Shown one piece after another: positions 1 through 3,000 of a stretch of DNA of 20,762 bases. This DNA is from a virus (taxonomy: Duplodnaviria > Heunggongvirae > Uroviricota > Caudoviricetes), in IMG/VR virus record IMGVR_UViG_2706794696_000002. One strand, written 5' to 3'. The position numbers were made by a program. The first letter of the stretch is position 1. Each line of letters begins with the position of its first letter.

Positions 1-3000
1 GGTTATCGCTCGCCACGGGAATATCTGCGGCAGCGGGCTTGTAATGGGTTAAGTGATAACAGATGTCTGGAAATATAGGGGCAAATCCAATCGTCGCCGT
101 ATTCCCGTATTAACAGAGACCGTAGCCCGACGGGGAACTCCTTCTGCGCGAGTGTGCGGGAATAATCAAAAACGATGCACACCGGGGTTACCGGGTACAC
201 ATATTTCATCATGCCAGCGAGTCCGGTTCTGGCACGGAAGAAACCGGACGTTATGATTTAGTGCGGAAATATTTGTGTAGTGTTCTGTATGTTCTCAGTA
301 AAGAGTAATGAATTATCAAAGGTATAGTAATACCTTTTGTTTTCGTGGATATTTGTAATCCATCTGAAAACCCCTGCTGTAGCAAGATTTTTCCTGTATT
401 CGTAAAATGATAACTCTCCTGATTTGAATCCTTTTAAGGTGGCTTCTATAAGGCATTTATTTTTTGAAAATCTTACATTTACAACCTTACCCTGTCCTTT
501 TATTAAAACCGTATTATCGTTTTCAAGAACAAGATGAATATTCTCTGTGGCTAAATAGTAAATGTAATGTGAGACATTGTGACGTTTTAGTTCAGAATAA
601 AACCAGTGATAGTTTAAATTATTTCGCACTTTATCGAATATTTGTTTAAAAATGGCAACCTGAGCCATTGTAGTACCTTCCATGTGATATGAGGGGGCGT
701 AGTCTGCACGATTATCTAAATTGCTTCAATCTGGTCTAACCTGTTTTCTGAGCAATTCAGTAATGTCACTCTTTTCTTTGTTTGCTTCAGGCGAAACTCT
801 TTTTTCTGAGCACAGTCTCCGGCGGCAGGCTTCAATGACCCAGGCTGAGAAATTCCCGGACCCTTTTTGAACAAGAGCGATGTTAATTTGTTCAATCATT
901 TGGTTAGGAAAGCGGATGTTGCGGGTTGTTGTTCTGCGGGTTCTGTTCTTCGTTGACATGAGGTTGCCCTGTATTCAGTGTCGCTGATTTGTATTGTCTG
1001 AAGTTGTTTTTACGTTAAGTTGATGCAGATCAATTAATACGATACCTGCGTCATAATTGATTATTTGACGTGGTTTGATGGCGTAGATGCACGTTGTGAC
1101 ATGTAGATGATAATTATTATCATTTTGCGGGTCCTTTCCGGCGATCCGACAGGTTACGGGGCGGAAGGCGCGCGGGTTTTCGCTATTTATGACAATTTTC
1201 CGGTTTAAGGCGTTTCCGTTCTTCTTCGCCGTAACCTAATGTTTTTATTTAAAACACCCCCTGAAAAGAAAGGAAACGACAGGTGCTGAAAACGGGCTTT
1301 TTGGCCTCTGTCGTTTCCTTTCTCTGTTTTTGTCCGTGGAATGAACAATGGAAGTCAACAAAAAGCAGCTGGCTGACATTTTCGGTGCGAGTATCCGTAC
1401 CATTCAGAACTGGCAGGAACAGGGAATGCCCGTTCTGCGAGGCGGTGGCAAGGGTAATGAGGTGCTTTATGACTCTGCCGCCGTTATAAGATGGTATGCC
1501 GAAAGGGATGCTGAAATTGAGAACGAAAAGCTGCGCCGGGAAGTTGAAGAACTGCGGCAGGCCAGCGAGACAGATCTCCAGCCAGGGACTATTGAGTACG
1601 AACGCCATCGACTTACGCGTGCGCAGGCCGACGCACAGGAGCTGAAAAATGCCAGAGACTCCGCTGAAGTGGTGGAAACCGCATTCTGTACTTTCGTGCT
1701 GTCGCGGATCGCAGGTGAAATTGCCAGTATTCTCGACGGGATCCCCCTGTCGGTGCAGCGGCGTTTTCCGGAACTGGAAAACCGACATGTTGATTTCCTG
1801 AAACGGGATATCATCAAAGCCATGAACAAAGCAGCCGCGCTGGATGAACTGATACCGGGGTTGCTGAGTGAATATATCGAACAGTCAGGTTAACAGGCTG
1901 CGGCATTTTGTCCGCGCCGGGCTTCGCTCACTGTTCAGGCCGGAGCCACAGACCGCCGTTGAATGGGCGGATGCTAATTACTATCTCCCGAAAGAATCCG
2001 CATACCAGGAAGGGCGCTGGGAAACACTGCCCTTTCAGCGGGCCATCATGAATGCGATGGGCAGCGACTACATCCGTGAGGTGAATGTGGTGAAGTCTGC
2101 CCGTGTCGGTTATTCCAAAATGCTGCTGGGTGTTTATGCCTACTTTATAGAGCATAAGCAGCGCAACACACTTATCTGGTTGCCGACGGATGGTGATGCC
2201 GAGAACTTTATGAAAACCCACGTTGAGCCGACCATCCGCGATATTCCGTCGCTGCTGGCGCTGGCTCCGTGGTATGGCAAAAAGCACCGGGATAACACGC
2301 TCACTATGAAGCGTTTTTCCAATGGTCGTGGCTTCTGGTGCCTGGGCGGTAAAGCGGCAAAAAACTACCGTGAAAAGTCGGTGGATGTGGCGGGTTATGA
2401 TGAACTTGCTGCCTTTGATGAGGATATTGAACAGGAAGGCTCTCCGACGTTCCTTGGCGACAAACGTATTGAAGGCTCGGTCTGGCCAAAGTCCATCCGT
2501 GGCTCCACGCCCAAAGTGAGAGGCACCTGCCAGATTGAGCGTGCAGCCAGTGAATCCCCGCATTTTATGCGTTTTCATGTTGCCTGCCCGCACTGCGGGG
2601 AGGAGCAGTATCTTAAATTTGGCGACAAAGAGACGCCGTTTGGCCTCAAATGGACGCCGGATGACCCCTCCAGCGTGTTTTATCTCTGCGAGCATAATGC
2701 CTGCGTCATCCGCCAGCAGGAGCTGGACTTTACTGATGCCCGTTATATCTGCGAAAAGACCGGGATCTGGACCCGTGATGGCATTCTCTGGTTTTCGTCA
2801 TCCGGTGAAGAGATTGAGCCACCTGACAGTGTGACCTTTCACATCTGGACAGCGTACAGCCCGTTCACCACCTGGGTGCAGATTGTCAAAGACTGGATGA
2901 AAACGAAAGGGGATACGGGAAAACGTAAAACCTTCGTAAACACCACGCTCGGTGAGACGTGGGAGGCGAAAATTGGCGAACGTCCGGATGCTGAAGTGAT

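What the first reader, a model, noticed from the sequence alone, without database searches (positions are those of the whole stretch)
258..959. AT-rich two-gene cargo cassette (RHH protein plus unknown 136-141 aa protein) upstream of cos
Two co-directional minus-strand genes sit between the lysis-side DNA and cos, transcribed opposite to the late operon as lysogen-expressed cargo such as bor and lom are. The proximal gene (726-959) is a YlcI/DUF3950-like ribbon-helix-helix protein. The distal gene (258-668/683) is roughly one-third GC by eye against about 55% for the phage backbone, and I cannot place its product in any family. As I recall it, lambda has the YlcI-like ORF here but different downstream sequence, so the distal gene looks like a cargo swap. 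An RHH DNA-binding protein followed by a small effector is the layout of many toxin-antitoxin and abortive-infection modules, so this is a candidate undescribed defence, anti-defence or addiction module. Because the RHH gene also occurs without this partner, the pairing may be coincidental.
Basis: partly seen in the sequence, partly recalled or inferred. Interest (0 to 1): 0.75.

Follow-up and report, generated by a model that had tools for sequence, protein, structure and literature searches.

The report
Known lambda accessory genes near cos
The two small leftward genes beside the packaging site are the already catalogued YdfO/YbcV (DUF1398) and YlcI/YnfO (DUF3950) genes, found in phage lambda itself and in about 70% of complete E. 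coli genomes; they are two separable genes rather than a new toxin-antitoxin or defence pair, and what the DUF1398 protein does is still unknown.

Summary
In detail: two real minus-strand genes lie at 258-668/683 and 726-959, and the distal one has 31% GC against a 56% GC backbone. The interpretation mostly fails.

- **Family.** The distal protein is a full-length Pfam DUF1398 member (E 3e-43). It is about 76% identical to E. coli K-12 YdfO, whose NMR structure is 2HH8, and to lambda gp78.
- **No cargo swap.** Lambda carries the same gene. It differs only by 613 extra bases, holding ybcW, between the two genes.
- **Prevalence.** The cassette matches 3800 of 5426 complete E. coli genomes. Its layout is that of ydfO-ynfO in the K-12 Qin prophage.
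- **Separability.**
  - YlcI occurs in 152 phage records and DUF1398 in 43.
  - Phage 434 has the slot empty.
  - Prophages exist with DUF1398 and no ylcI.
  - All DUF1398 homologues at or below 53% identity lack a YlcI neighbour.
- **No defence signal.** There is no PADLOC hit. A ybcV overexpression clone gave a scorable phenotype in a published library screen, which implies it grew. Lambda gp78 is non-essential.

Best reading: a facultative AT-rich accessory gene (a "moron") with its own upstream region sits next to a conserved cos-proximal small basic protein. The DUF1398 fold is an orphan, so its function stays unknown. Low interest; already known.

The parts
258..668 (-). DUF1398 (YbcV/YdfO/lambda gp78 family) gene, 136 aa. 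An upstream in-frame ATG at 683 would give 141 aa.
676..681 (-). Shine-Dalgarno-like GGAAGG, 7 nt upstream of ATG-668
   Evidence: Read from the sequence. Conserved in Qin and lambda.
684..742 (-). Conserved upstream region that travels with the DUF1398 gene. It holds a promoter-like site (-35 738..733, -10 716..711).
   Evidence: Homologous in the window, Qin and lambda, with homology breaking just upstream of it. The promoter-like match scores 9/12. This is a consensus match only, and the -10 spacing is not conserved in lambda.
729..745 (.). PdhR-box-like palindrome ATCTGGTCTAACCTGTT. It overlaps the last codons of ylcI and the -35 of the promoter-like site; the stop codon at 726-728 lies just outside it.
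   Evidence: Nearly the same sequence as the K-12 site AAcaGGTcagACCAgaT listed for ynfO/ydfO in the PdhR genomic SELEX study, PMC7660256. Conserved in the alignment. Binding in this phage was not tested.
190..796 (.). Facultative AT-rich segment (moron) carrying the DUF1398 gene, its upstream region and the 3' tail of ylcI
   Evidence: Phage 434, ev243 and E. coli AF5 align to window 90-189 and 797-1158 and have only 104 bp in between. Lambda has a further 613 bp (ybcW) in place of window 743-796.
726..959 (-). YlcI/YnfO (DUF3950) gene, 77 aa. Codons 1-54 are the conserved core; the C-terminal tail lies in the variable segment.
   Evidence: Pfam PF13132 E 2e-20 and NCBIfam NF041551. 95% identical to lambda's over 55 aa. 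N-terminal 50 residues are nearly invariant across the family.
1029..1061 (.). Inverted repeat ATCAATTAATACG / CGTCATAATTGAT, 70-100 nt upstream of the ylcI start; a candidate operator
   Evidence: the repeat finder pair I2, 13-nt arms, 85% complementary. The function is inferred only.
1129..1135 (+). cosQ (GGGTCCT)
   Evidence: Sequence. It holds the same position relative to the right end as the annotated cosQ of phage 434.
1159..1170 (+). cosN cohesive-end 12-mer, variant GGGCGGAAGGCG
   Evidence: Alignment to the lambda left end. Lambda's right end aligns up to window 1158.
1348..1893 (+). Nu1 small terminase subunit (context)
   Evidence: ORF. Named terminase subunit Nu1 in PhiR49_1, which is 98.6% identical.
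3..212 (-). Small ORF downstream of the DUF1398 gene; doubtful gene that spans a mosaic joint at about 89/90
   Evidence: ORF. Its N-terminal ~33-41 residues (window 90-212; DNA homology to the empty-slot phages covers 90-189) are conserved in ev099, PhiR49_1, 434 and 2851. No Pfam family. A weak PHROG hit covers its C-terminal part only.

Best explanation
This is the ordinary right-end accessory region of a lambda-like E. coli prophage. It holds two independent genes, not one module.

(1) DUF1398 gene. Window 190-796 is a facultative, AT-rich accessory segment (a 'moron'). It carries one gene of the DUF1398 family (lambda gp78, DLP12 YbcV, Qin YdfO) together with about 75 nt of its own conserved upstream region. 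The product is a soluble, basic (pI 9.4), 16-kDa cytoplasmic protein. Its fold is an orphan, built as (helix-helix-strand-strand-strand) twice. The most conserved residues are aromatic or structural and do not look catalytic to me. Lambda does not need the gene for lytic growth. It is kept under purifying selection even in decayed prophages. It is transcribed against the late operon from host-controlled signals.

Inferred mechanism: it is made in the lysogen and acts stoichiometrically, by binding a host protein or nucleic acid, to alter host physiology. It is not a toxin held in check by its neighbour.

(2) ylcI. This gene belongs to the conserved cos-proximal backbone. It encodes a very basic small protein whose core resembles a ribbon-helix-helix (RHH) DNA binder. 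It most likely regulates its own leftward promoter beside cos.

Shown: family membership, fold, separability, slot anatomy, prevalence and selection. Inferred: lysogen expression in this phage, the binding mode, and the role of YlcI.
For: Family and fold:
- Pfam DUF1398 E 3e-43; 2HH8 E 1e-69.
- AF2 pLDDT 88.5.

Same genes in lambda, DLP12 and Qin.

Prevalence:
- 3800 of 5426 complete E. coli genomes have a match; 2674 have a place covering at least 80% of the query.

Three states of the slot, with the same flanks:
- Empty in 434, ev243 and AF5.
- DUF1398 only in the window and Qin.
- DUF1398 plus ybcW in lambda and DLP12.

Separability:
- 152 phage records hold YlcI and 43 hold DUF1398.
- The ATCC 25922 prophage has DUF1398 without ylcI.
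- A 27%-identical DUF1398 sits in the same Rz-to-Nu1 slot with no YlcI.
- All 38 genome loci at or below 53% identity lack YlcI within 6 kb.

Other points:
- The upstream region and PdhR-like box travel with the DUF1398 gene.
- dN/dS is 0.18-0.30.
- No hydrophobic segment: maximum Kyte-Doolittle 0.39 over 19 residues.

Literature:
- lambdap78 is non-essential by CRISPRi and earlier genetics (PMC10695390).
- ybcV mRNA falls 10-fold in a pdhR mutant, and PdhR sites lie at ybcV/ybcW and ynfO/ydfO (PMC7660256).
- ydfO is induced 116-fold by an ionic liquid (PMC4077768).
- ybcV and ybcW rise more than 1000-fold when T4 MotB, which perturbs H-NS, is overexpressed (PMC7827196).
- The ASKA library's ybcV overexpression clone was scored in a glycogen screen and altered glycogen accumulation, which implies it grew (PMC2853380).
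Against: - No experiment or structural relative gives the DUF1398 protein a molecular activity, so the 'stoichiometric binder of a host factor' step is inference only.
- Expression in the lysogen of this phage is not shown. The promoter-like site is a weak consensus match whose -10 spacing is not kept in lambda.
- The MotB result came from BL21(DE3), where lambda DE3 late transcription was also induced and could contribute reads.
- The only published protective phenotype cited for YdfO rests on a gene-name mix-up with yfdO.
- The RHH fold of YlcI is not demonstrated.
- Within lambdoid prophages with DUF1398 at or above about 70% identity, the two genes are almost always neighbours. A functional link in that subgroup therefore cannot be excluded by genomics alone.
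Confidence: 0.78

Rival explanations
1. One reading: a two-gene toxin-antitoxin or abortive-infection module, in which YlcI (an RHH antitoxin or regulator) neutralises or represses a DUF1398 toxin or effector.
For: - The two genes are co-directional and adjacent, 42-57 nt apart.
- YlcI has an RHH-like sequence pattern and a weak PHROG HicB-like hit, E 0.055.
- In Qin-type prophages the two are nearly always neighbours: 79 of 80 and 74 of 77 IMG/VR loci, all near-identical.
- The ORFs are in the same frame, separated by one TGA.
Against: - Lambda and DLP12 have 613 bp with an opposite-strand gene (ybcW) between them.
- At least 109 of 152 YlcI-bearing phage records lack DUF1398.
- DUF1398 occurs without YlcI in the ATCC 25922 prophage, in the P0405 prophage, as chromosomal ycgX, and in Klebsiella and Kluyvera paralogues.
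- The DUF1398 gene carries its own conserved upstream region.
- No PADLOC hit.
- The ybcV overexpression clone was scored in a published screen, implying it grew.
- The ybcV::Kan Keio knockout exists with ylcI intact, and the reverse dependence has never been reported.
Confidence: 0.05
2. DUF1398 alone is a single-gene prophage weapon: a superinfection-exclusion, anti-phage or anti-defence protein expressed from the lysogen.
For: - It sits in the lysis-to-cos moron slot, next to bor/iss-type conversion genes.
- It is facultative, AT-rich and widespread.
- It is an orphan small-protein fold, as many inhibitors are.
- Even 27%-identical versions keep the same slot.
Against: - No match to any PADLOC defence model.
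- Chromosomal paralogues sit in non-phage contexts such as fimbrial, fatty-acid-synthase-like and bluR/iraM neighbourhoods.
- Full-text searches found no paper linking DUF1398, ybcV, ydfO or ycgX to phage resistance, apart from one gene-loss entry in a table.
Confidence: 0.12
3. The genes serve the phage life cycle itself, for example fine-tuning packaging at cos or lysis timing. YlcI would act as a cos-proximal DNA-binding factor.
For: - ylcI is always the last gene before the packaging module, whether that is Nu1/A-type or HNH+TerS/TerL-type.
- Its core is nearly invariant.
- An inverted repeat lies between it and cosQ.
Against: - The genes run antisense to the late transcript.
- CRISPRi scores lambdap78 non-essential, and classical genetics scores both lambdap78 and lambdap79 non-essential; the 'essential' CRISPRi call for lambdap79 is most simply a polar block of the late transcript.
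- Cryptic prophages that can no longer package still keep intact copies.
- DUF1398 paralogues exist outside prophages.
Confidence: 0.05

Closest known systems
E. coli K-12 Qin prophage ydfO-ynfO (YdfO structure PDB 2HH8)
   Same: Identical layout: ynfO (77 aa) then ydfO (136 aa), leftward, next to nohA/cos. Window 220-1400 aligns colinearly at 89.9% DNA identity. The DUF1398 proteins are about 76% identical and the YlcI-type proteins 97%.
   Different: Allelic divergence only. Qin is a decayed prophage, whereas the window carries a full lambda-like head and tail gene set.
Phage lambda gp78 (lambdap78, 'putative envelope protein') and the unannotated/YlcI ORF; DLP12 ybcV-ybcW-ylcI
   Same: Same two families in the same slot, between the lysis genes and cos, on the same strand. 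76% and 95% protein identity.
   Different: Lambda and DLP12 have 613 extra bases with ybcW (lambda gp79, opposite strand) between the two genes, and a 64-aa YlcI with a different C-terminal tail. Lambda also has bor downstream, where this phage type has a KilA-N gene instead.
Lambda lysogenic-conversion morons bor and lom
   Same: Facultative genes transcribed against or independently of the late operon, dispensable for growth, and present in only some lambdoid phages.
   Different: Bor and Lom are outer-membrane proteins with known serum-resistance and adhesion phenotypes. DUF1398 has no signal peptide or membrane segment and no known phenotype.
Type II toxin-antitoxin modules with RHH antitoxins (ParD/ParE, CopG-like, HicB C-terminal RHH)
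   Same: A small basic putative DNA-binding protein is encoded just upstream of a second small protein on the same strand.
   Different: Co-occurrence is not conserved, an opposite-strand insertion is tolerated between the genes, the second gene has its own upstream region, the second protein belongs to no toxin family, and its overexpression is tolerated.

Membership tests
DUF1398 (Pfam PF07166; YbcV/YdfO/YcgX, lambda gp78) | Full-length match to the family profile above the curated cut-off | tested here: met
   147 bits against a cut-off of 22, E 3.3e-43, profile positions 1-119 of 119.
DUF1398 (Pfam PF07166; YbcV/YdfO/YcgX, lambda gp78) | YdfO fold: two consecutive helix-helix-strand-strand-strand units | tested here: met
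YlcI/YnfO (Pfam DUF3950 PF13132; NCBIfam NF041551) | Match to the family profiles above the curated cut-offs | tested here: met
   Pfam 72.8 bits against 25. NCBIfam 35.2 bits against 30.
Ribbon-helix-helix (Arc/MetJ/CopG) DNA-binding superfamily | Detectable sequence or structural similarity to a solved or curated RHH domain | tested here: inconclusive
   No PDB hit by phmmer or by a profile. No Pfam RHH family even at E 10. Only the strand/helix/G-x-x-x-S/helix pattern and a PHROG HicB-like hit at E 0.055 support it.
Type II toxin-antitoxin module | Two genes form one operon, overlapping or closely spaced, with no independent control of the second gene | tested here: not met
   The gap is 42-57 nt. 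The second gene has its own conserved upstream region, which breaks from ylcI homology exactly there. Lambda and DLP12 carry ybcW on the opposite strand between the two.
Type II toxin-antitoxin module | Conserved co-occurrence of the two partners across genomes | tested here: not met
   YlcI is in 152 phage records and DUF1398 in 43. Each occurs without the other. No YlcI lies within 6 kb of any DUF1398 at or below 53% identity.
Type II toxin-antitoxin module | The toxin arrests growth when expressed without the antitoxin, and the two proteins form a complex | not testable with these tools
   Indirect only: the ASKA ybcV overexpression clone was scored in a screen, implying it grew (PMC2853380).
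Known anti-phage defence systems (PADLOC-DB 2.0) | A protein matches a model of a known or candidate defence system | tested here: not met
   No hit for YlcI. The only hit for DUF1398 is Csx23 at E 0.025, 12.6 bits, which is noise.
Prophage moron / lysogenic-conversion gene | Facultative insertion between conserved backbone flanks, with composition unlike the backbone | tested here: met
   Window 190-796 is replaced by 104 bp in 434, ev243 and AF5, with flanks 93-97% identical. GC is 0.31-0.35 against 0.56.
Prophage moron / lysogenic-conversion gene | Own promoter, expression in the lysogen, and a host phenotype | tested here: inconclusive
   A weak promoter-like site and a PdhR-like box are present. 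K-12 homologues in cryptic prophages are transcribed and regulated. There are no data for this phage and no reliable host phenotype.
Virion 'head protein' (PHROG 413 label) / 'envelope protein' (old K-12 label) | A structural role in the virion, or a signal peptide or membrane segment | tested here: not met
   No hydrophobic segment (maximum Kyte-Doolittle 0.39). YdfO was solved as a soluble protein. Lambdap78 is non-essential. From established knowledge, the well-characterised lambda virion does not contain gp78. Both labels appear to be annotation carry-over.

The most novel reading that the evidence does not exclude
The DUF1398 protein is an orphan fold carried by most E. coli strains and by phage lambda itself. 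It could be a so far unrecognised single-gene prophage effector: for instance an inhibitor of a host or phage enzyme that gives superinfection exclusion or anti-defence, or a connector-type regulator like its chromosomal paralogue's neighbours IraM and AriR. A still more speculative variant is low-level read-through of the single in-frame TGA between ylcI and the ATG-683 ORF, which would produce a YlcI-DUF1398 fusion that tethers the protein to DNA near cos.
Probability: 0.12. Interest if true: 0.55.

Novelty: already known. Interest (0 to 1): 0.15.

Why it matters
As a finding it matters little. The genes are annotated in thousands of genomes, sit in lambda and K-12, and one has had a solved structure since 2006.

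The residual value is a reminder that even phage lambda still carries a conserved, selected gene (gp78) with no known function. This analysis narrows the options for it:
- It is not a partner of ylcI.
- It is not an envelope or head protein.
- It is not in any known defence family.
- It behaves as a self-contained, AT-rich, host-regulated moron that has kept the same lysis-to-cos slot even at 27% identity.

That makes a simple deletion and expression study in lambda lysogens a well-posed experiment.

Tried and rejected
- **Single-sequence AlphaFold2 of the 141-aa protein.** pLDDT 45.8, unusable. Repeated with a 12-sequence alignment.
- **afdb50 fold library.** Not available.
- **Profile and Pfam searches to prove the RHH fold of YlcI.** Nothing found.
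- **Rfam scan of 1-1400.** Only sub-threshold miRNA matches on the known cos-Nu1 hairpin.
- **IMG/VR locus scans.** These returned only near-identical copies, so they say nothing about deep linkage.
- **A third, profile-based protein search for domain fusions or named distant relatives.** None found.
- **The apparent DUF3950+DUF1398 fusion proteins P0013 and P0014.** Rejected as TGA translated as W by gene callers.
- **The published claim that YdfO raises oxidative-stress resistance.** Rejected. The cited paper reports yfdO of CPS-53 and never mentions ydfO.
- **Hits to the gene in Kitasatospora, Pedobacter, Brevibacillus and similar taxa.** Rejected as lambda control-DNA contamination.
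Full report
**1. Observation**

The window is the right end and head-tail region of a lambda-like E. coli prophage. Nu1 lies at 1348-1893 and terminase A at 1868-3793, followed by the usual plus-strand late genes. 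cosQ (GGGTCCT) is at 1129-1135 and the cohesive-end 12-mer at 1159-1170.

The distal gene has 31% GC. The region 300-700 runs at 30-33% in 200-nt windows, against 56% for the rest of the window.

Both are real genes.
- The distal one matches Pfam DUF1398 end to end (E 3.3e-43). It evolves under purifying selection, with dN/dS of 0.18-0.30 against lambda and Qin.
- The proximal one matches DUF3950 and NCBIfam YlcI_YnfO_N.

The 136-aa start is the better one. GGAAGG lies 7 nt upstream of ATG-668 and nothing similar precedes ATG-683. Homologues begin there, and RefSeq annotates 136 aa.

**2. What the distal protein is**

- It matches the NMR structure of E. coli K-12 YdfO (PDB 2HH8, a structural-genomics target released in 2006) at E 1.4e-69, about 76% identity.
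- It is 76% identical to lambda gp78 (lambdap78) over 135 residues.

The protein is basic (pI 9.4) and has no hydrophobic segment. The inherited labels 'putative envelope protein' and 'head protein' (PHROG 413) therefore have no support.

**3. Lambda has the same genes, so there is no cargo swap**

Lambda-type records carry, in this order and on this strand: bor, gp78 (DUF1398), then gp79/ybcW on the opposite strand, then a YlcI/YnfO gene, then cos. Window 89-742 aligns with lambda at 82.6% and window 797-1158 at 95%. Lambda has 613 bp, including ybcW, where the window has 54 bp.

The window's layout is exactly that of ydfO-ynfO in the Qin prophage of K-12, colinear at 89.9% over window 220-1400. 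DLP12 has the lambda layout.

The 801-bp cassette finds a match in 3800 of 5426 complete E. coli genomes. In 2674 of them a place covers at least 80% of it. RefSeq names the genes 'DUF1398 domain-containing protein' and 'YlcI/YnfO family protein'.

**4. Anatomy of the slot**

Phage 434, ev243 and E. coli isolate AF5 align to window 90-189 and 797-1158 at 93-97%. They have only 104 bp in between. The slot therefore has three states:

| State | Where seen |
|---|---|
| Empty | 434, ev243, AF5 |
| DUF1398 only | this window, Qin, PhiR49_1, ev099 |
| DUF1398 plus ybcW | lambda, DLP12 |

Window 190-796 is thus a facultative AT-rich moron. The right joint falls at codon 54/55 of ylcI. The conserved YlcI core belongs to the cos-proximal backbone, and its C-terminal tail (64-aa versus 77-aa forms) is whatever the variable segment supplies.

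About 75 nt upstream of the DUF1398 start are conserved in all three layouts, and homology breaks immediately beyond them. This stretch contains three elements:
- the Shine-Dalgarno sequence;
- a weak sigma-70-like site;
- the palindrome ATCTGGTCTAACCTGTT at 729-745.

The palindrome is nearly the sequence reported as a PdhR genomic-SELEX site for ynfO/ydfO in K-12. A like site lies between ybcV and ybcW, and ybcV mRNA falls 10-fold in a pdhR mutant (PMC7660256). The DUF1398 gene therefore carries its own control region.

**5. Are the two genes a pair?**

Several tests say no.

- **Phage records.** Among 50,697 records, YlcI is found in 152 and DUF1398 in 43. At least 109 YlcI phages, including 434 and the Stx-converting phages, lack DUF1398.
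- **Stx phage 2851.** Here the YlcI gene sits next to an HNH endonuclease and an HK97-type terminase. Its constant feature is being the last leftward gene before the packaging module.
- **DUF1398 without ylcI, example 1.** A prophage of ATCC 25922 has DUF1398 and ybcW, a DUF1441-type small terminase, and no ylcI.
- **DUF1398 without ylcI, example 2.** A 27%-identical DUF1398 (P0405) occupies the same Rz-to-Nu1 slot of another E. coli prophage, with no YlcI in the 700 bp before Nu1.
- **GTDB species-representative scan.**
  - Most loci with DUF1398 at or above about 70% identity lie in a lambdoid right end with YlcI nearby. Many of these are lambda control-DNA contamination.
  - All 38 loci at or below 53% identity have no YlcI within 6 kb. 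These come from Citrobacter, Klebsiella, Kluyvera, Raoultella, Pseudocitrobacter, Salmonella diarizonae and Epilithonimonas, and include E. coli ycgX.
  - One further frameshifted Escherichia copy (L062) still has YlcI beside it.
  - The neighbours of the distant copies are varied: BluR and IraM, DinI, a cold-shock-domain protein, an integrase, a phosphatase, an SMR pump, a fimbrial usher operon, and fatty-acid-synthase-like genes.
- **Near-identical IMG/VR loci.** The near-constant adjacency here (79 of 80 and 74 of 77) is synteny of one allele. It is not evidence of coupling.
- **Defence models.** Neither protein matches a PADLOC model.

**6. Literature**

- Lambdap78 is non-essential by CRISPRi and classical genetics (PMC10695390).
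- ydfO is strongly induced by an ionic liquid in exponential phase (PMC4077768).
- ybcV and ybcW rise more than 1000-fold when T4 MotB, which perturbs H-NS silencing, is overexpressed in BL21(DE3). Lambda DE3 late transcription was induced too (PMC7827196).
- The paralogue ycgX is de-repressed in an hha ydgT mutant (PMC3686432).
- The ybcV overexpression clone of the ASKA library was scored in a glycogen screen and changed glycogen accumulation, which implies it grew (PMC2853380).
- A recent machine-learning annotation effort could draw no inference for ycgX (PMC12356324).
- The one cited protective phenotype (YdfO and oxidative stress) is a confusion with yfdO of CPS-53.

No held paper gives DUF1398 or DUF3950 a molecular function.

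**7. Most likely mechanism**

*Shown.* The DUF1398 gene is a self-contained, facultative, AT-rich unit. Its product is soluble and has an orphan fold. It is under selection, dispensable for lambda growth, and separable from ylcI.

*Inferred.* From established knowledge of AT-rich foreign DNA, it is probably silenced by H-NS and switched on by host signals, PdhR among them. It is probably made in the lysogen rather than during lytic growth, because it is antisense to the late transcript. The most conserved residues (L27, Y35, T41, N43, G99, W103, R112, Y114) look structural or aromatic rather than catalytic to me. That points to stoichiometric binding of a host protein or nucleic acid.

YlcI is very basic (pI 10.9). 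Its core has the strand/helix/turn/helix pattern of ribbon-helix-helix proteins. It probably binds DNA near its own promoter, and the inverted repeat at 1029-1061 is a candidate site. I could not demonstrate the fold.

I put 0.78 on 'ordinary known accessory genes, not a module'. I put far less, roughly 0.3, on the specific binding mechanism.

**8. Rivals**

| Reading | Confidence | Main point |
|---|---|---|
| Toxin-antitoxin or abortive-infection pair | 0.05 | Fails the operon and co-occurrence tests |
| Single-gene exclusion or anti-defence effector | 0.12 | Not excluded; the only reading that would make the locus interesting |
| Role in packaging or lysis | 0.05 | Unlikely, given orientation, dispensability and retention in dead prophages |

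**9. Novelty and score**

Already known: the same genes are annotated in lambda, K-12 and thousands of genomes, and one has a solved structure. Interest is 0.15. The open question, what lambda gp78 does, is real but is not new, and this window does not make it newly testable.

Noticed in passing
window 1159-1170: The 12-nt cohesive-end sequence is GGGCGGAAGGCG, which differs from lambda's GGGCGGCGACCT at 5 of its last 6 positions. The surrounding cos DNA is about 97% identical. The variant recurs in 12 fetched IMG/VR loci (about 7 contigs), against 110 loci with the lambda type, so it is a real minority allele. Its sticky ends would not anneal with lambda's.
   Followed up: partly
loci L015-L036, L049-L051: Lambda gp78-ybcW-ylcI-bor-Rz appears on contigs of about 3.5 kb or about 48.5 kb in assemblies labelled Kitasatospora, Brevibacillus, Pedobacter, Flavobacterium, Cohnella, Pseudomonas and others. 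This looks like lambda control or spike-in DNA (probably the 3.6-kb nanopore control amplicon) left in public genomes. It also inflates the protein databases with frameshifted copies such as P0132, P0138 and P0144.
   Followed up: partly
window 683-959; proteins P0013, P0014: Database 'fusion' proteins carrying both DUF3950 and DUF1398 (233 aa, a cluster of 761 members) are the ylcI stop codon TGA translated as W, presumably by gene callers using code 4 or 25. The underlying fact is that ylcI and the ATG-683 ORF are in the same frame, separated by one TGA and 14 sense codons.
   Followed up: partly
literature (PMC4077768 citing PMC3105296): The statement that YdfO overexpression increases oxidative-stress resistance cites a paper that reports yfdO (CPS-53 prophage) and never mentions ydfO. 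This is a gene-name mix-up that could spread into annotations.
   Followed up: yes
window 729-745: A PdhR-box-like palindrome (ATCTGGTCTAACCTGTT) overlaps the last codons of ylcI and the -35 of the promoter-like site for the DUF1398 gene; the stop codon (726-728) lies just outside it. It is conserved upstream of lambda gp78 and Qin ydfO and marks the exact edge of the mosaic joint.
   Followed up: partly
window 1029-1061 and 1106-1121: Two AT-rich inverted repeats lie between the ylcI start and cosQ: ATCAATTAATACG/CGTCATAATTGAT and the palindrome GATGATAATTATTATC. They are possible operator or promoter elements for the leftward ylcI transcript. A plus-strand promoter-like site (1096-1123, 10/12) overlaps the second.
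   Followed up: no
window 3-212 (-): A small ORF sits downstream of the DUF1398 gene. Its N-terminal ~33-41 residues (window 90-212; DNA homology to the empty-slot phages covers 90-189) are conserved, and in phages with an empty slot this stretch lies directly after ylcI. Its C-terminal part changes at a mosaic joint near position 89/90. It is annotated as a 53-54-aa hypothetical protein in PhiR49_1 and ev099, and its coding status is doubtful.
   Followed up: partly
window 1262-1329: A long near-perfect hairpin between cos and the Nu1 start (GAAAGGAAACGACAGG...CCTGTCGTTTCCTTTC) is also present in lambda. It produced only sub-threshold miRNA matches in Rfam and a terminator-like call.
   Followed up: no
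PHROG 413; RefSeq phage records: The DUF1398 gene is labelled 'head protein' in many RefSeq and pharokka-style phage annotations, and 'putative envelope protein' or 'Phage envelope protein' elsewhere. Neither label is supported by the sequence, the structure or lambda genetics.
   Followed up: yes
L242 4001-4534 (E. coli CP076706): A DUF1398 protein only 27% identical to the window's occupies the same Rz-to-Nu1 slot in another lambdoid prophage, again on the strand opposite the late genes and with lower GC than its flanks. The family's tie to this slot therefore appears to be old.
   Followed up: partly
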